From the NCBI GenBank assembly GCA_000146465.1, contig CP001944.1: 64,000 nt of DNA. One strand, 5' to 3'. The notes under the pieces are model-generated. The model was not told the DNA's origin. It made no database searches and saw only the letters and a program-made list of their open reading frames with translations. This document shows, piece by piece, positions 47,189 to 53,948 of this stretch. Positions within the stretch are counted from its first letter, which is position 1. The number at the start of each line of letters is the position of its first letter. The position numbers and the translations under genes are program-made.

Positions 47189-48208
47189 ATGGACTGGTAT
47201 CTAAAGAAGTATCCAGACGCCAAGATCCTTGCCGACAGGCTCTCCATGCTGGCACAAACCGATGGGGAGGACATGTCGAAGTACCTTGATTCCGAAAACC
47301 TATCTCTAGCAGATTGCATATACACAGAAAGATTGTACAGATCTAGGGATGTCAAAAGGACATTGAGAAGGGTTGCAGCAAAAGAAGGTTCAAGGATAGA
47401 AAAGATTGTTTATGAAATGCTCTGCAAGAGAAAGATTGTTTTCGACGACTATCTGCTGAAGCTGTCTTTTATAAAGAGATTTGGAAGGTTTAAGAGGTTT
47501 TTTATTGATGGGAAGGAACCTGAATACCGGATGGAGATGATGGTCCACAAACTCCTCTATCTCGGGGAAAATGTTGTTGAGGAAGTTGAGAAAGAGATTG
47601 TAAGAGTTCCGGGTGACAAGGCATGGGTTTACATGGGTTTTCTTGGATCTTCTGTGGGGCGGGATGTGATTATGGAGGTTATGAGCCGTGTGAGTATTGA
47701 GTTCAAGCCCTTTGTCGGCTCTTTCCTCCAAAAGGAAGATTACTACAACAAGATGTGCAGTGTGATTCTGAAGTCCCCTTCCGAAGAAAGAGGGGCCGTA
47801 ATCTTGTCAATGGGAGTCCTTGACAAGGCCCAATTCTACAGGTCACTTCTTCATGTATGGTTTTCCGAGAGTGGAGGGAAGAGAAGATTCAACGACCTTA
47901 TTGAGATAATGAGGGAAGTGAAGGTAGACAGGAGAATGAAGACGGAGATTATTGATGGGTATCTAAACGGGCTTATCTACCAGAGGAGGGTAGGGGAGTT
48001 TATGAAGCTATTTAAGCTTGCAAAAAGAATGAAGATCTGCAGAGATGAACACAAGCTGTTTGAAAAGCTTTATAATGCTGTCCGTAAGTACAAAAGAGAA
48101 GGGAAGCTGGACCTAAGAAGGTTTCTAGATGGATGCAAGGAAAGAAAGAAGAAGGATTTGGTGTCTCCGTACAGCTGGGAAAGTATACATGAAATGTACA
48201 GAGAATGA
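47189..48208 (+). CDS. Hypothetical protein, 339 aa, basic
   Basis: ATG at 47189 begins a long ORF. No confident family. Confidence 0.55.
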   Translation: MDWYLKKYPDAKILADRLSMLAQTDGEDMSKYLDSENLSLADCIYTERLYRSRDVKRTLRRVAAKEGSRIEKIVYEMLCKRKIVFDDYLLKLSFIKRFGRFKRFFIDGKEPEYRMEMMVHKLLYLGENVVEEVEKEIVRVPGDKAWVYMGFLGSSVGRDVIMEVMSRVSIEFKPFVGSFLQKEDYYNKMCSVILKSPSEERGAVILSMGVLDKAQFYRSLLHVWFSESGGKRRFNDLIEIMREVKVDRRMKTEIIDGYLNGLIYQRRVGEFMKLFKLAKRMKICRDEHKLFEKLYNAVRKYKREGKLDLRRFLDGCKERKKKDLVSPYSWESIHEMYRE

Positions 48209-48270
48209 TTGGAAGGCCTGGGGTTTCCTTTCTGCATGGAGGATAAATTTTGTGGGCTCTCATCCTTGGG

Positions 48271-49314
48271 ATGGTAGTGGTAGGAAGAGAAGAGGAGTAC
48301 TTGAAGCTGGAACGCTATCTAGACATGTTTTTTAGCACAGAGACAGGAGGGATTGTCTACATAAGTGGGGTTCCGGGATCTGGGAAGACACACACGGTGT
48401 TGAGACTGATGGAAAAAAGACAGGTCAAGCATCTGTTCTTGAATGCAGCTGGGTTGAGGTTAAAAAGGGATGTTTATAAGTGGATCCTCACAAATCTATC
48501 CTGCTGCACCGATCCAAAGCGTATGTATTTAAAAAGTCTCCAGAAACACTTTATGGAATGTATTTCTCACCATGTGGTTGTGATTGATGAAGTGGATATT
48601 CTTATAGGAAGGAGCCAAGAAGTGTTATACAATTTGTTTGATATGCCATACCTGGAAAACAGCAAGCTTCTGCTGTTTGTAATTTCCAATACAATGAATC
48701 TTCCCGAGAGACTGTTTGAGCCTAAGGTTTGTAGCCGGATAGGAGGGAGAAGAGTTAACTTCACGCCATACACATCTGCACAACTGTGTGAGATGGCTGG
48801 AAGTTGCGGAGTGAACAAGGGTTGTGTTGAGCTTGTTTCAAAGAGAATTGGGGGAGTCAGTGGAGATGCTCGAAAGGTAAGGGATGTGATTGAGAGGGTT
48901 AAAGAAAGTGAGAGGGGGAGTGAGGCAGGGATATTAGATGTGGACGATATTATGAGAAAAATGTATGTTCCTGTATACACCTACTACCTTCAAAACCTGT
49001 CTTCTTATCAAAAAACCATTATATTTCTGGTTAGCGGAAGCGAGCAGGACAGAATGAAAACCAATGAACTTTACGATGAGTTTGTCTCTTTCTGCAGAAG
49101 ATCTGGAATGAAAGAAGTGGGGTTTTTTGAGTACTTGGATCTCCTCGAGGTGTTAGTGGACTACGGGCTCCTTGGAGTTAGGAGCTTGGGGAAAGAGATT
49201 CAATGTATGGTTCTGCGGGAGGAGGTTGAAAAGAGCCTTGGGTCGGACAAGGAGTATCTGGAAATAACCGGGAGGGCGGGGAGTAGAAGATGTTTTTTGA
49301 AGAACTCTGGTTAA
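48271..49314 (+). CDS. ORC1/CDC6-family AAA+ ATPase (replication initiation)
   Basis: ORF-track start is TTG. The first ATG is at 48271. Walker A IVYISGVPGSGKTHTV, Walker B VVVIDEVD, and the Orc1/Cdc6-type sensor region LLLFVISNTMNLPERLF..KVCSRIGGRRVNFTPYTSAQL. Confidence 0.7.
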   Translation: MVVVGREEEYLKLERYLDMFFSTETGGIVYISGVPGSGKTHTVLRLMEKRQVKHLFLNAAGLRLKRDVYKWILTNLSCCTDPKRMYLKSLQKHFMECISHHVVVIDEVDILIGRSQEVLYNLFDMPYLENSKLLLFVISNTMNLPERLFEPKVCSRIGGRRVNFTPYTSAQLCEMAGSCGVNKGCVELVSKRIGGVSGDARKVRDVIERVKESERGSEAGILDVDDIMRKMYVPVYTYYLQNLSSYQKTIIFLVSGSEQDRMKTNELYDEFVSFCRRSGMKEVGFFEYLDLLEVLVDYGLLGVRSLGKEIQCMVLREEVEKSLGSDKEYLEITGRAGSRRCFLKNSG

Positions 49315-49339
49315 AATCCGAAGAGAGAAGACCCATCAA

Positions 49340-49822
49340 ATGGATCAAAAACTCAAGCACTTTCTTGACAACTCGAACTTCCGAAGAGACAGGAGAAACA
49401 AGAAAAAGAAAGTTGAGACGTCTGGGGGAAAGAGAGAAGCAGGACAGGAGGAGATCTTGATGATTAAGAACGGGCAGATTGTTGTCAATGATGCAAACAT
49501 GTATGTGGACACACATCGGGATGTGGAGATGGAGGTGATGGAAGACGACCGGATTGTGACATCCTCGACCTTTAGCAAGAAGAAAGGAGCACTAAGGTGG
49601 AGCAAAAAAGAGATAGAGCTGTTTTATAAGGCGTTAGAAATCTGTGGGATTGAATTTTCATTAATAAGCTCCCTTTTTCCGAACAAGGAGAGAAAGCACA
49701 TCAAAGCGAAGTACATAAAGGAAGCGAAGGTCAACCCCGAGAGGATCAACGAGGTACTGAACGAGTATAAAACATTTGATCAGGTGGCATACAACAAGCT
49801 CCGAAGCTATCTTCTTGAGTGA
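49340..49822 (+). CDS. BDP1: SANT/Myb-domain protein, Bdp1 (TFIIIB B'')-like
   Basis: ATG at 49340. SANT domain LRWSKKEIELFYKALEICGIEFSLISSLFPNKERKHIKAKYIKEAKVNPERINEVL closely matches the Bdp1 SANT signature. Confidence 0.6.
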   Translation: MDQKLKHFLDNSNFRRDRRNKKKKVETSGGKREAGQEEILMIKNGQIVVNDANMYVDTHRDVEMEVMEDDRIVTSSTFSKKKGALRWSKKEIELFYKALEICGIEFSLISSLFPNKERKHIKAKYIKEAKVNPERINEVLNEYKTFDQVAYNKLRSYLLE

Positions 49823-49859
49823 AAAAGTTTAATAAATCTGTTCTATCCTCCTATAGGGT

Positions 49860-50549
49860 TTAGAGTAACTTATCCTTGGCAGTTGATGAGTGGATCTTTG
49901 CATTGATGATCCTGGAGATCTGAAGGAACAGCTTGTAATAAGCAAAGACAAGTAAGGTTGCAGCAGCAACCAAGGCCATTCTCATCGATATCGACATATA
50001 TCCTAGAAAAGGGTACACCCAGGAGTTGTTGAGTCTTTGGAAGTAATGGATTACCATAAAGTAGACAAACCCAAAGATGGCAAAGGTCCAGTAATGTCTT
50101 CTTGCTCCATAGATATTGACGCCTACTTGATCTATCAGAAGGAGAATAAATGGGAACAGATGGATGGACATCTCCGATATTAGCGGAGTCCTAACACCTG
50201 CCATATAAAGATCCTTATTCTTGAGAAGTGTCGGATCTATGGCATTAAGTGTCCAGAATACTGTTGTCACTAGTCCCTCCAGAGGAAGAGTAATGGAAAG
50301 AAAGTCTCTGTACACCTCTTTAATTCTTGAGGCTCCAAAATGTTTTACGCAGTAACTTAGAGACAACGTCATTATTGTCATGTAAAGACTTATCTGGGTG
50401 ATATAAATGTGGCTTCTTCCAGCAAGCTTGTCGATGAACTTCACCCACTCCTTTGGCTGGGAGTAGTCTGTTGCCCCGTAGATACAAAGTACGAAGAGGA
50501 TTATCTTGAAGATTTCCTTTGAAGCCAAAAGACGGCTAGAACTTTCCAT
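49860..50549 (-). CDS. FAR-17a/AIG1-like multi-pass membrane protein (copy A)
   Basis: ORF-track start is TTG. The first ATG is at 50549 (MESSS...). LEGLVTTVFWTLNAIDPTLLK...LISEMSIHLFPFILLLIDQ...SWVYPFL parallels the AIG1 FW..Y..D...P...P.WLNH..H..P...L.E...WVYPFL pattern. Confidence 0.65.
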   Translation of the reverse strand: MESSSRLLASKEIFKIILFVLCIYGATDYSQPKEWVKFIDKLAGRSHIYITQISLYMTIMTLSLSYCVKHFGASRIKEVYRDFLSITLPLEGLVTTVFWTLNAIDPTLLKNKDLYMAGVRTPLISEMSIHLFPFILLLIDQVGVNIYGARRHYWTFAIFGFVYFMVIHYFQRLNNSWVYPFLGYMSISMRMALVAAATLLVFAYYKLFLQISRIINAKIHSSTAKDKLL

Positions 50550-50651
50550 AAGATTATGTGGCTTTGAAGGATAAAAAGAATCTAGGAGTAACAAACTTTT
50601 AATGTATCAATGAAATGAGGAGATGTGATAATCAATGGGTCCCCGACCAAT

Positions 50652-51341
50652 TCAAAAGGATCTATTATCCTCTTTCACTGGCTCATACTTCCCATGAACC
50701 AAATCGTTAACTCCAAGAAGGCCTAAGTAACATCCAGTACCGATAAGACATGCCATAAAAATGAAGAGTATCCTCCCAATAGTGTTCATTTTCTTGAAAA
50801 TTGGATAGGGCCACTTGCCATCTACCGTGTAGAAGTACCAGGTTTCTAGGAAGTATAGAATGCCGAATCCAAATACAAAGGAAATGCATCTCTTCCGTTT
50901 TTTTAGCCTCACATCTATTTGGCATATCAGTAGGAGGAGAAGAGGAAACAAATGCTGGGAGAGCTCTGTTAATAAGCTTTCCTGGATTCCCTCACTATAA
51001 AGTTTCCTACTTTTCAGGAGAGTTGGGTTAATGAAGTACAAAATCCAAAACAGTAAGGTCACTATGCCCTCTAAGGAGAAGGAAAGAGCCAGCAAGTCTT
51101 TGTAAGTGGTTTCCAAACTCTTTCCGACTTTGGTTCTTGTGAGATACCCGATAACTGTTGTAATGATGGTTAAATACAGCGATAGTACAGTAAGGTATAC
51201 AAATTTTCCCCCAGAAGTTCGATTTATAGACTGAACTACTTGTTCCGGTAAGGCATAGTCCAACGTCCCGTACACACAAAAGCCCAGAAGTGTTACTTTC
51301 AATATCTCTTTTAGCATCCTTTTTATCTTTTCCTTTTCCAT
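50652..51341 (-). CDS. FAR-17a/AIG1-like multi-pass membrane protein (copy B, tandem paralog)
   Basis: ORF-track start is TTG. The first ATG is at 51341 (MEKEK...), preceded by cccctt. It is collinear with copy A: LEGIVTLLFWILYFINPTLLK...LLTELSQHLFPLLLLLICQ...KWPYPIF. Confidence 0.65.
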   Translation of the reverse strand: MEKEKIKRMLKEILKVTLLGFCVYGTLDYALPEQVVQSINRTSGGKFVYLTVLSLYLTIITTVIGYLTRTKVGKSLETTYKDLLALSFSLEGIVTLLFWILYFINPTLLKSRKLYSEGIQESLLTELSQHLFPLLLLLICQIDVRLKKRKRCISFVFGFGILYFLETWYFYTVDGKWPYPIFKKMNTIGRILFIFMACLIGTGCYLGLLGVNDLVHGKYEPVKEDNRSF

Positions 51342-51500
51342 AAGGGGACGTTGTAAAACTCGAAAAATAATTAAAGCAAAGAGGGTGTGGGGATCTTTTT
51401 GTTTTGAATTTTGGAAGAGGGCGAGTAGGGATTCCTTTGGAGAGATGTTGATGGGGCCCGGATAAAACAATAAAAAAGAAGCCCTTCCAAACCTCTGGAA

Positions 51501-51971
51501 ATGTTAAAGATCTATGAGGATATAATCAATGAGGTTATATCCAGGCTTGAGCATGCCGAGGACGAGGCCAGCATTAGTAAGTCTGCTATCCATGAACTCC
51601 GAAACGAGTGGAGGGAAAGGCTTATTGAGTACACACAAGGGGAATGGGACGAGGACAGGATTGTTCAGAGAGGCGGAGAACAGGGATATCGGCACGTAAG
51701 GCCTTCAGAAGGGTCTGGAAGTGTTTTTGGGGGGAATCCCACGATGGAGAAGGAGCCTGGGATGTTTGAGGACTACGAGAGCTTGAGCGGATCGAGTGGA
51801 GACTCGGAGATAATAGGAAAGAAGGTTACCGCTGGGAACTGTATGGTCTGTCTGTATGTGAAGGTCAACATGTCAAAGGGGAAGTGGAAGTGTACATTTA
51901 AGCAGGGTTTTATCAGCATAGGGAAGATAGACTTTGTGTTTAACTCCGCCCAGGGGGAGCTTGAGTGGTGA
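51501..51971 (+). CDS. TOA1: Transcription factor IIA large subunit (TOA1-like)
   Basis: ATG at 51501. N-terminal IYEDIINEVISRLEHAEDEASISKSAIHELRNEWRERL is the TFIIA alpha helical domain. The acidic linker is followed by C-terminal NCMVCLYVKVNMSKGKWKCTFKQGFISIGKIDFVFNSAQGELEW, the TFIIA beta-barrel signature. Confidence 0.7.
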   Translation: MLKIYEDIINEVISRLEHAEDEASISKSAIHELRNEWRERLIEYTQGEWDEDRIVQRGGEQGYRHVRPSEGSGSVFGGNPTMEKEPGMFEDYESLSGSSGDSEIIGKKVTAGNCMVCLYVKVNMSKGKWKCTFKQGFISIGKIDFVFNSAQGELEW

Positions 51972-52044
51972 AGAGATTTTATTTAATAAAGGATCCCTGT
52001 ATATTTGGTAAACGTTTGAGAAGTTGGCAGGATAAGCCCTGGAA

Positions 52045-53082
52045 ATGGGGATCAAGCAGTTATCCAAGCTCCTGAAAGAGAATTGTGCGAAAGGAATTAA
52101 AGAAAGGCCTTTGGCATACTACTCGTCGAAGAGAATAGCAATTGACGCTTCGATGTCGATGTACCAGTTTCTGATAGCTGTTAGATCTGATGGATCATCA
52201 CTGGGAAACGAAGACTCCCCAACATCGCATCTTGTAGGATTTTTCTACAGGACTATCCGGATGGTGGAGCTAGGAATAATACCTGTGTATGTATTTGATG
52301 GAGTACCTCCCGAGGTTAAGATGAAGGAGCTAGAGAAAAGAAGCGAAAGAAGAGCAGCAGCTGATAAAGAGTACAAAGAGGCGTCTGAAATGGGGGACAA
52401 GAAGCTTATGGAGATGTACGACAAGAGAAAGACAAAGGTGACTGGGATGCATGTTGAGGAGTGCAAGAGACTTCTTGGGCTGATGGGGATACCGTTTGAA
52501 ACAGCACCCAGCGAGGCAGAGGCATACTGTGCTTTCCTATGCAAGAAGAAGGCTGTGTACGGTGTTGCAACAGAGGACATGGATGCTCTGACATTTGGGT
52601 CACCTGTGGTGTTGAGAAACTTCAGTGGCTCCCAGAGCAGAAAGCTTCCTATTGTAGAATACAACCTCCCGGAGCTATTGGAAAGCCTTTCCTTGGAGCA
52701 CGAAGAGTTTATTGACTTGTGCATTCTCCTCGGATGTGATTACTGTGGCACATTGAAAGGAATAGGGCCTAAGAGAGCACTGGGGTTGATTAAAAAGCAT
52801 GGGGGCATTGAGAAGATTCTCCAGAGCGAGAATTTGGAGGTTCCCGACGGCTGGAGATATAGGGATGCCCAGAGGATATTTGGAAGTCTTCCGGAAATTG
52901 GAGATGCAAGAGAGTTTAATATTTCATGGGGGTCGATAGACAGAAATGGGATTGTGAGCTTCCTTGTTGAAGAGAAGGGATTTGACTTGGAAAGAGTCAA
53001 CAGAGGGATTGAAAAGCTTGTGAACTCTCGAAAGAAAGGGGTCCAAGGGCGTCTAGATGGGTTCATAGCAAGGAGCAGGTGA
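52045..53082 (+). CDS. FEN1: Flap endonuclease 1 (FEN1/RAD27)
   Basis: ATG at 52045. MGIKQLSKLL...IAIDASMSMYQFL...VYVFDGVPPEVK (XPG-N) and XPG-I EAPSEAEAYCAFL...ATEDMDALTFG. Confidence 0.92.
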   Translation: MGIKQLSKLLKENCAKGIKERPLAYYSSKRIAIDASMSMYQFLIAVRSDGSSLGNEDSPTSHLVGFFYRTIRMVELGIIPVYVFDGVPPEVKMKELEKRSERRAAADKEYKEASEMGDKKLMEMYDKRKTKVTGMHVEECKRLLGLMGIPFETAPSEAEAYCAFLCKKKAVYGVATEDMDALTFGSPVVLRNFSGSQSRKLPIVEYNLPELLESLSLEHEEFIDLCILLGCDYCGTLKGIGPKRALGLIKKHGGIEKILQSENLEVPDGWRYRDAQRIFGSLPEIGDAREFNISWGSIDRNGIVSFLVEEKGFDLERVNRGIEKLVNSRKKGVQGRLDGFIARSR

Positions 53083-53096
53083 GTCTTCTATGGCAG

Positions 53097-53948
53097 TTAC
53101 AGGTTTTTATACATCAAGTTCCTCAGATACAATGGCCTACAACCAGACACGTGCTTTTTGAAGCTGGACATATCCACAAGTAGAACACCCTCCCTGTCTA
53201 TGAGACCGAAGTCAAGAATGTCAAGGAAGTAAAATAGGATTTCCATGTTAGTTACTCCCCTGAGCTCGTTGGCATCTGATGTAAAGGCCCGAAACTCTGG
53301 CACACAGCTGATATACTTTATTCTTCTTTTGAATGCCATCATTGTAAGGGCCACATGGACAGGGTTCAGTAAGGAGTATAGAGTTTCTATGGAGTATTCT
53401 GGAATGGAGTACTTTTTCAAGACTATTTTCTTCAACAGAACTGAAATGCTTGGATCGATATTGTATTGTCTCTGGATTTCTTCTTCATTGTCTGTGGCGG
53501 CAAGTTGCATATGCAGAGTTCTGTATAGCTCAAAAGGAAGAAAACCTGTGAAAAATATCCGGTGATTGAATCTTGACTTGATACGCCTTTCCAGTCTGTC
53601 CAGAGAAGTGCACGAGTTCGATACAAGAAGCAGGCAGCAGGGATGGGTCCTGGTCTTTTCAAGATAATGGTATACGTGCAGCTGACGGGAAATGGGCATT
53701 TCTCCCTCTATATCAATAAAAAAAACCTTTCCGTCGGGACTTTCGTCTTTTGGAGTGGTTGGGAGGACTTTAACCACTGTTCTGCTTATCTTTTCTGCAT
53801 GGCTCTTCACCACCCCAACGATTGCTTGAAGTATTTCTTGGTCTGGCCCACACAGGAGAAGATGCTCCCCATTTTTGTCAATCAGACGTGTTATCTCGCA
53901 GATGGTTTCCTTGAAGCACTCTCCGACAATCTTTGCTGTGCCATACAT
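53097..53948 (-). CDS. ORC4: Origin recognition complex subunit 4-like AAA+ protein (degenerate Walker A)
   Basis: ATG at 53948. FFIDIEGEMP...CCLLLVSNSCTSLDRLERRIKSRFNHR parallels the ORC4 ILDEFDLF...[24 protein letters not shown] region. The P-loop is reduced to LLLCGPDQE. Confidence 0.6.
   Translation of the reverse strand: MYGTAKIVGECFKETICEITRLIDKNGEHLLLCGPDQEILQAIVGVVKSHAEKISRTVVKVLPTTPKDESPDGKVFFIDIEGEMPISRQLHVYHYLEKTRTHPCCLLLVSNSCTSLDRLERRIKSRFNHRIFFTGFLPFELYRTLHMQLAATDNEEEIQRQYNIDPSISVLLKKIVLKKYSIPEYSIETLYSLLNPVHVALTMMAFKRRIKYISCVPEFRAFTSDANELRGVTNMEILFYFLDILDFGLIDREGVLLVDMSSFKKHVSGCRPLYLRNLMYKNL

What the first reader, a model, noticed from the sequence alone, without database searches (positions are those of the whole stretch)
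49860..51341. Tandem pair of FAR-17a/AIG1-like six-pass membrane proteins
Two same-strand neighbouring genes (49860..50549 and 50652..51341) encode collinear paralogs. They share CIYGATDY/CVYGTLDY, LEG[LI]VT..FW.L..I[DN]PTLLK, L..E[ML]S.HLFP..LLLI.Q, and a C-terminal W[VP]YP[FI] motif. The pattern matches the AIG1/ADTRP (FAR-17a) family. In animals these are Thr/His lipid hydrolases acting on fatty-acid esters of hydroxy fatty acids. In copy A, a Thr follows the first GxxDY motif and a His sits in the SIHLFP motif, which could correspond to the catalytic dyad. A retained tandem duplicate in a reduced genome suggests functional importance, possibly in membrane lipid remodelling.
Basis: partly seen in the sequence, partly recalled or inferred. 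Interest (0 to 1): 0.5.

Follow-up and report, generated by a model that had tools for sequence, protein, structure and literature searches.

The report
Tandem AIG1-like membrane hydrolase genes
Two neighbouring genes of the microsporidian parasite Encephalitozoon intestinalis really do encode a conserved pair of six-helix membrane proteins of the AIG1/ADTRP lipid-hydrolase family, with the catalytic threonine and histidine intact. Public databases already carry this family label, so the finding is correct but ordinary.

Summary
The window is Encephalitozoon intestinalis ATCC 50506. Minus-strand genes 49860..50549 (Eint_030940, copy A) and 50652..51341 (Eint_030950, copy B) each encode 229 aa. 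The two proteins are 34% identical (E 6e-45). Both match Pfam PF04750 far above its cutoff (91 and 141 bits against 24.5).

The tandem pair sits in the same syntenic slot in E. cuniculi, E. hellem, E. romaleae and Ordospora colligata. One unnamed relative has three copies there. Both copies are under purifying selection (dN/dS about 0.1-0.25).

The most likely function is a Thr/His acyl-ester lipid hydrolase, with the two paralogs specialised. The substrate is unknown. UniRef already names both proteins "FAR-17a/AIG1-like protein". I found no literature on microsporidian members. Interest is low.

The parts
49860..50549 (-). Copy A CDS (Eint_030940, 229 aa + stop), the downstream gene of the pair. 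A PF04750 protein of the A-clade.
50652..51341 (-). Copy B CDS (Eint_030950, 229 aa + stop), the upstream gene of the pair. A PF04750 protein of the B-clade.
50397..50399 (-). Codon ACC = Thr51 of copy A (YITQ), the predicted nucleophile at the N-terminal end of helix 2.
   Evidence: Aligns with human AIG1 T43 and ADTRP T47. The column is T in 145/152 sequences and S in 6. Sequence read. Helix 50-71 in the model.
50160..50162 (-). Codon CAT = His130 of copy A (SIHLFP), the predicted general base in helix 4.
   Evidence: Aligns with AIG1 H134 and ADTRP H131. The column is H in 150/152 sequences. Helix 123-141 in the model.
51189..51191 (-). Codon ACT = Thr51 of copy B (YLTV), the predicted nucleophile at the start of helix 2.
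   Evidence: Helix 50-67 in the model.
50952..50954 (-). Codon CAT = His130 of copy B (SQHLFP), the predicted general base in helix 4.
   Evidence: Helix 123-141 in the model.
50550..50651 (-). 102-bp spacer between copy B's stop and copy A's start. Poorly conserved apart from ATTGGT just after the B stop.
   Evidence: Alignment of the spacer from four Encephalitozoon species.
51342..51500 (.). 159-bp divergent intergenic region between copy B and the TFIIA gene. It contains conserved non-coding blocks and is presumably the promoter region for both genes.
   Evidence: Alignment of four species with 72% mean column identity. CAAAACAAAAAG lies at window 51395..51406 (minus strand). AAGGGnTnCTTTTTTATTnTTTTATC lies at 51461..51486.

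Best explanation
The two genes are anciently duplicated, non-redundant members of the AIG1/ADTRP (FAR-17a, PF04750) family of six-helix integral-membrane enzymes.

Each protein most likely works as an acyl-ester hydrolase with a Thr/His dyad. Thr51, at the membrane-interface start of helix 2, is activated by His130 on helix 4. It attacks the ester carbonyl of a lipid that enters the cavity laterally from the bilayer, forming an acyl-Thr intermediate. Water then resolves that intermediate.

The two paralogs have been kept side by side since before the Encephalitozoon/Ordospora split. This suggests they are specialised for different lipid esters, membranes or life-cycle stages, in a parasite that depends heavily on host lipids. 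That dependence is general knowledge about microsporidia and was not tested here.

Shown: family membership, dyad conservation, predicted six-helix fold, synteny and purifying selection. Inferred: catalytic activity, the acyl-enzyme mechanism, the substrate class and the subfunctionalisation.
For: - PF04750 matches well above cutoff in both copies.
- Human AIG1 and ADTRP sequences were verified as exact database entries. Their catalytic T43/H134 and T47/H131 (PMC8123165) align with T51/H130 of both copies. The columns are T in 145/152 and H in 150/152 sequences.
- All other family-conserved positions (W99, P133, Y163, Y179, P180) are kept in both copies.
- 36 positions are conserved across both the A and B clades, and only 9 are fixed clade-specific differences.
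- AF2 models have pLDDT 91.4 and 90.3, with six long helices. T51 opens helix 2 and H130 lies in helix 4. This matches the published nucleophile-on-TM2 / His-on-TM4 layout of the AIG1/TMEM164/GPC1/YwaF/YpjA superfamily (bioRxiv 10.1101/2022.07.06.498872).
- The tandem pair sits in the same slot in E. cuniculi, E. romaleae, E. hellem and Ordospora.
- The A and B clades each have about 83-85% NJ bootstrap support.
- pN is 0.10-0.43 against pS 0.58-0.85, giving dN/dS of 0.09-0.25 where computable, for both copies.
Against: - No enzymatic, expression or localisation data exist for any microsporidian or fungal member. Literature searches were empty.
- Identity to the characterised human enzymes is only about 20-27%, so substrate specificity cannot be transferred.
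- The His alignment shifts by two columns in a shallow alignment.
- The spatial proximity of T51 and H130 could not be measured, because the tool returns no coordinates.
- The structurally closest solved protein is an acyltransferase, not a hydrolase.
Confidence: 0.6

Rival explanations
1. The proteins are transacylases (acyltransferases) rather than hydrolases. The acyl-Thr51 intermediate would be resolved by a lysolipid acceptor instead of water, re-tailoring phospholipids scavenged from the host. TMEM164 and GPC1 work this way in the same fold superfamily.
For: The closest solved structure for both copies is TMEM164, a PC-dependent acyltransferase with an observed acyl-enzyme intermediate. 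The superfamily contains both hydrolases and acyltransferases on one 6TM core. The catalytic chemistry up to the acyl-enzyme step would be identical.
Against: By sequence the proteins belong to the PF04750 branch, not to the TMEM164 or GPC1 families. A family profile does not detect TMEM164 by sequence. The nucleophile is Thr, as in the hydrolase branch, whereas the known acyltransferase branches use Cys. Oxygen esters are poorer acyl donors than thioesters; this last point is general chemistry and an inference.
Confidence: 0.2
2. The proteins are non-catalytic membrane proteins, such as scaffolds, regulators or transport-related proteins, that merely retain the ancestral fold.
For: ADTRP was first described through a regulatory phenotype, TFPI regulation (PMC8123165). 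No activity has been measured for any fungal or microsporidian member.
Against: The two dyad residues are among the most conserved columns of the whole family and are invariant in every A- and B-clade sequence examined. A protein that had lost catalysis would be expected to relax exactly these positions.
Confidence: 0.12
3. One copy is a redundant or decaying duplicate, and only the other is functional.
For: Copy A scores lower against the Pfam model than copy B (91 against 141 bits). The B orthologue of E. hellem is fast-evolving, at 56% identity to E. romaleae against 80% for copy A.
Against: Both copies are intact in five species and have separate, supported orthologue clades. pN is much lower than pS for both. 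Both retain every family-conserved residue. Both give confident models.
Confidence: 0.03

Closest known systems
Human AIG1 and ADTRP (PF04750, FAR-17a/AIG1-like), Thr/His integral-membrane FAHFA hydrolases
   Same: Same Pfam family. Same length class of about 230 aa. Six-helix core. The catalytic Thr at the start of helix 2 and the His in helix 4 are aligned and conserved. The C-terminal WxYP motif is shared.
   Different: Identity is only about 20-27%. The segment after the His differs (HLFP against HTTVLP/HTFIFP), giving a two-residue register ambiguity. E91 in helix 3 is conserved in microsporidia and most non-vertebrate members but is G or S in the human proteins. The substrate is unknown.
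S. cerevisiae YHR140W (P38842), the yeast PF04750 member cited in the ATGY superfamily paper
   Same: It is a PF04750 member from fungi, a group related to Microsporidia (the relationship is my own knowledge), listed with the AIG1-class hydrolases. It is likewise uncharacterised.
   Different: It was not aligned here because its sequence was not retrieved. It is a single gene in yeast as far as I know (my own knowledge, not tested), whereas here there is a conserved tandem pair.
TMEM164 (PF14808; PDB 9lw1), a Cys/His phospholipid transacylase
   Different: Identity is 10-11%, and the relationship is undetectable by sequence profile. TMEM164 has a Cys nucleophile, an extra helix (7 TM), a metal site and a TM2-mediated dimer. 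It carries out acyl transfer, not hydrolysis.

Membership tests
PF04750 FAR-17a/AIG1-like (AIG1/ADTRP family) | Match to the Pfam HMM above the gathering score over nearly the full model | tested here: met
   Copy A scores 91.3 bits over profile positions 4-203 of 206. Copy B scores 141 bits over positions 3-205 of 206. The cutoff is 24.5.
PF04750 FAR-17a/AIG1-like (AIG1/ADTRP family) | Six transmembrane helices in a protein of about 230 aa | tested here: met
   In the AF2 models the long helices are 2-26, 50-67/71, 72/74-104, 123-141, 150-174 and 187-217+, with pLDDT 91.4 and 90.3. These are predictions, not experiments. A crude hydropathy scan at a strict threshold found only some of the helices.
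PF04750 FAR-17a/AIG1-like (AIG1/ADTRP family) | Conserved Thr equivalent to AIG1 T43 / ADTRP T47 | tested here: met
   T51 in both copies. The column is T in 145/152 sequences and S in 6. It is invariant in all the microsporidian sequences aligned.
PF04750 FAR-17a/AIG1-like (AIG1/ADTRP family) | Conserved His equivalent to AIG1 H134 / ADTRP H131 | tested here: met
   H130 in both copies. The column is H in 150/152 sequences in the 152-sequence L-INS-i alignment. In a 25-sequence alignment the human His is displaced by two columns, so the equivalence depends on the alignment.
PF04750 FAR-17a/AIG1-like (AIG1/ADTRP family) | Thr and His side chains apposed in a lipid-accessible cavity | not testable with these tools
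   Structure prediction returns no coordinates. Only the helix assignment is available: T51 at the start of helix 2 and H130 in the middle of helix 4.
PF04750 FAR-17a/AIG1-like (AIG1/ADTRP family) | Hydrolysis of FAHFAs or other lipid esters, and reactivity with fluorophosphonate probes | not testable with these tools
   This is a biochemical property. No published data were found for microsporidian members.
TMEM164 / GPC1 acyltransferase branches | Cys nucleophile at the TM2 position | tested here: not met
   The position is Thr in both copies and in 145/152 family members. The proteins are therefore not filed in these branches.

The most novel reading that the evidence does not exclude
The conserved array of two (in one relative three) diverged AIG1-like enzymes could be a parasite-specific lipid-ester processing module. 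Distinct Thr/His hydrolases or transacylases would re-tailor or detoxify host-derived lipid esters, possibly FAHFA-like lipids. Such a module would be essential for a microsporidian that, from general knowledge and not tested here, has little lipid metabolism of its own. It would also be druggable with the covalent inhibitor chemotypes already made for human AIG1/ADTRP; their existence is my own knowledge and was not checked here.
Probability: 0.2. Interest if true: 0.45.

Novelty: already known. Interest (0 to 1): 0.2.

Why it matters
If the two proteins are active Thr/His lipid esterases, they would be among the few lipid-modifying enzymes kept by a drastically reduced obligate intracellular parasite. 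They are kept in duplicate, which hints at a non-trivial role in handling host lipids.

They would also give small, compact, easily modelled representatives of an enzyme family that has no experimental structure. No AIG1 or ADTRP relative is in the PDB by sequence.

As it stands, however, this is a correct family assignment that UniRef already carries for these exact proteins. It does not challenge any current view.

Tried and rejected
- The afdb50 library was unavailable, so the models could not be compared directly with the AlphaFold models of human AIG1 or yeast YHR140W.
- A family profile searched against PDB sequences did not detect TMEM164. A residue-level T51-to-C123 and H130-to-H181 correspondence therefore rests on the published superposition, not on my own alignment.
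- The primary paper on AIG1/ADTRP catalysis (Parsons 2016, PMC4837090) is not held. The residue numbers come from a review and were checked against the verified human sequences.
- The third homologue search, seeded with an alignment that contained the human proteins, was swamped by vertebrate AIG1/ADTRP. It gave no names for other microsporidia or fungi.
- The distribution of the pair beyond Encephalitozoon/Ordospora therefore rests on two unnamed contigs, L007 and L008.
- A 25-sequence MAFFT alignment placed the human His two columns away from H130. I rejected this in favour of the 152-sequence L-INS-i alignment, where bridging sequences resolve it.
- Rfam found nothing in 48000..53500.
- I considered and rejected three ideas: a pseudogenised copy, the longer TTG-started ORFs, and functional linkage to the flanking genes, which are unrelated housekeeping genes.

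Full report
**What is there.** The window is from Encephalitozoon intestinalis ATCC 50506. The two predicted proteins match ADM11238.1 (Eint_030940) and ADM11239.1 (Eint_030950) exactly, and UniRef already calls both "FAR-17a/AIG1-like protein".

Both genes lie on the minus strand. Copy B (51341->50652) is upstream and copy A (50549->49860) is downstream, separated by 102 bp. Each encodes 229 residues. The longer TTG-initiated ORFs listed come from the bacterial start-codon rule. The ATG starts coincide with the aligned Met1 of the orthologues in five species.

The two proteins are collinear and 34% identical (E 6e-45). No further copy lies in the 64-kb window and no Rfam family matches the region.

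The flanking genes are unrelated housekeeping genes:
- a Cdc6-like AAA protein
- a Myb_DNA-bind_7 protein
- TFIIA
- an XPG/FEN1 nuclease

**Family membership.** PF04750 (Far-17a_AIG1) matches copy A at 91.3 bits and copy B at 141 bits, over essentially the whole 206-position model. The gathering score is 24.5. An exhaustive profile search found 552 cluster representatives at E <= 1e-3 and 178 at E <= 1e-10.

**Catalytic residues.** A review of ADTRP states that hydrolase activity depends on T43/H134 in AIG1 and T47/H131 in ADTRP (PMC8123165). I supplied the human sequences from memory and confirmed them as exact database entries, NP_057192.2 and NP_116133.1.

In a 152-sequence L-INS-i alignment, T43/T47 fall in the column of T51 of both window proteins (YITQ in A, YLTV in B). 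H134/H131 fall in the column of H130 of both (SIHLFP, SQHLFP). These columns are T in 145/152 sequences (S in 6) and H in 150/152.

A shallow 25-sequence alignment put the human His two columns away, because vertebrates have HTTVLP where most others have HLFP. The deep alignment resolves this, but the equivalence depends on the alignment.

The Thr inside the GxxDY motif (T27 of copy A) is not the catalytic equivalent, and that column is poorly conserved in the family. Both copies keep all other strongly conserved family positions: W99, P133, Y163, Y179 and P180.

**Fold.** AlphaFold2 models built on a 36-sequence alignment are confident: copy B has pLDDT 91.4 and pTM 0.86, and copy A has pLDDT 90.3 and pTM 0.84. 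Both show six long helices (about 2-26, 50-67/71, 72/74-104, 123-141, 150-174 and 187-217+) plus two short loop helices. T51 opens helix 2 and H130 lies within helix 4.

This agrees with Reed et al. (bioRxiv 10.1101/2022.07.06.498872). They united AIG1/ADTRP, TMEM164, GPC1, YwaF and YpjA into one 6TM superfamily, with a variable nucleophile (Thr, Cys or Ser) on TM2 facing an invariant His on TM4.

The TMEM164 cryo-EM study observed a fatty-acyl-Cys123 intermediate and validated H181 (PMC12830759). That gives direct support for covalent acyl-enzyme catalysis in this fold. I could not measure the T51-H130 distance because no coordinates are returned.

**Evolution.** The same tandem pair, in the same order, lies between the TFIIA/FEN1 genes and the Myb/Cdc6-like genes in E. 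cuniculi (L001), E. romaleae (L005), E. hellem (L006) and Ordospora colligata (L003).

An NJ tree separates an A clade and a B clade, each containing one gene per species, with bootstrap support of 0.825 and 0.845. The duplication therefore predates the Encephalitozoon/Ordospora split.

Both copies are intact in all five species. Non-synonymous differences (pN 0.10-0.43) are far below synonymous ones (pS 0.58-0.85, largely saturated), giving dN/dS of 0.09-0.25 where it can be computed. Thirty-six positions are conserved across both clades, including the dyad, and nine are fixed differences between them, for example A:H152/B:C152 and A:P89/B:S89. This pattern fits specialised rather than redundant paralogs.

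An unnamed relative (Logan contig, L008) carries three tandem copies in the same slot, and a JGI metagenome contig (L007) also shows a B-like gene followed by an A-like gene.

**Mechanism and rivals.** The best-supported reading is that both proteins are catalytically competent Thr/His acyl-ester hydrolases acting on membrane lipids, with the two paralogs differing in substrate, membrane or stage.

Family membership, dyad conservation, predicted fold, synteny and selection are shown. Activity, the acyl-Thr mechanism, the substrate and the subfunctionalisation are inferred.

- **Transacylase.** This is the main rival and is suggested by the TMEM164 fold match. It is disfavoured by the Thr nucleophile and by sequence placement in the hydrolase branch.
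- **Non-catalytic role.** This is disfavoured by the near-invariance of exactly the two dyad residues.
- **Decaying duplicate.** This is effectively excluded.

FAHFAs specifically are only one candidate substrate, and identity to the human enzymes is about 20-27%.

**Novelty.** The family assignment is already attached to these exact proteins in UniRef. The family, its dyad and its superfamily context are published.

I found no paper mentioning microsporidian members or these locus tags and none characterising yeast YHR140W. The conserved tandem arrangement and the dyad check in Microsporidia appear undescribed, but they are unsurprising. I score interest at 0.2 and classify the finding as already known at the level of kind and annotation.

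Noticed in passing
L008:4001-6243 (Logan SRR21023573 contig, unnamed relative): The same syntenic slot holds three tandem PF04750 genes. The first is B-like (it equals P0013). The second belongs to a third lineage, closest to P0023 at 48%. The third is A-like, 60% identical to Eint copy A. All three keep the Thr and His. Either Encephalitozoon/Ordospora lost a copy or this lineage gained one.
   Followed up: partly
window 51342..51500 (blocks at 51395..51406 and 51461..51486): The divergent intergenic region between copy B and the TFIIA gene contains non-coding blocks that are nearly invariant across four Encephalitozoon species, although synonymous sites are saturated. CAAAACAAAAAG lies about 54-65 nt upstream of copy B's ATG. 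AAGGGnTnCTTTTTTATTnTTTTATC lies 15-40 nt upstream of the TFIIA ATG. These are likely promoter or 5'-UTR elements.
   Followed up: partly
L006:3001-3699 (E. hellem copy B orthologue): The E. hellem B orthologue evolves markedly faster than its A neighbour. It is 56% identical to E. romaleae, against 80% for copy A, with dN/dS 0.25 against 0.09. It also carries a small insertion (DPQGSAF) in the loop before helix 6.
   Followed up: no
window 49823..49859 and 50550..50651: Spacing is very tight. Only 37 bp separate the convergent stop codons of the Myb-like gene and copy A, and 102 bp separate copy B from copy A. This is typical of Encephalitozoon gene density, and transcripts may overlap or read through. 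Only an ATTGGT just after the B stop is conserved in the B-A spacer.
   Followed up: no
window 47189..48208 (+) and 53097..53948 (-): Two flanking ORFs, of 339 aa and 283 aa, have no Pfam match at E <= 1e-3. They are nevertheless conserved in position in all the related species examined, where they appear as genes of 337-339 aa and 280-296 aa without Pfam hits.
   Followed up: no
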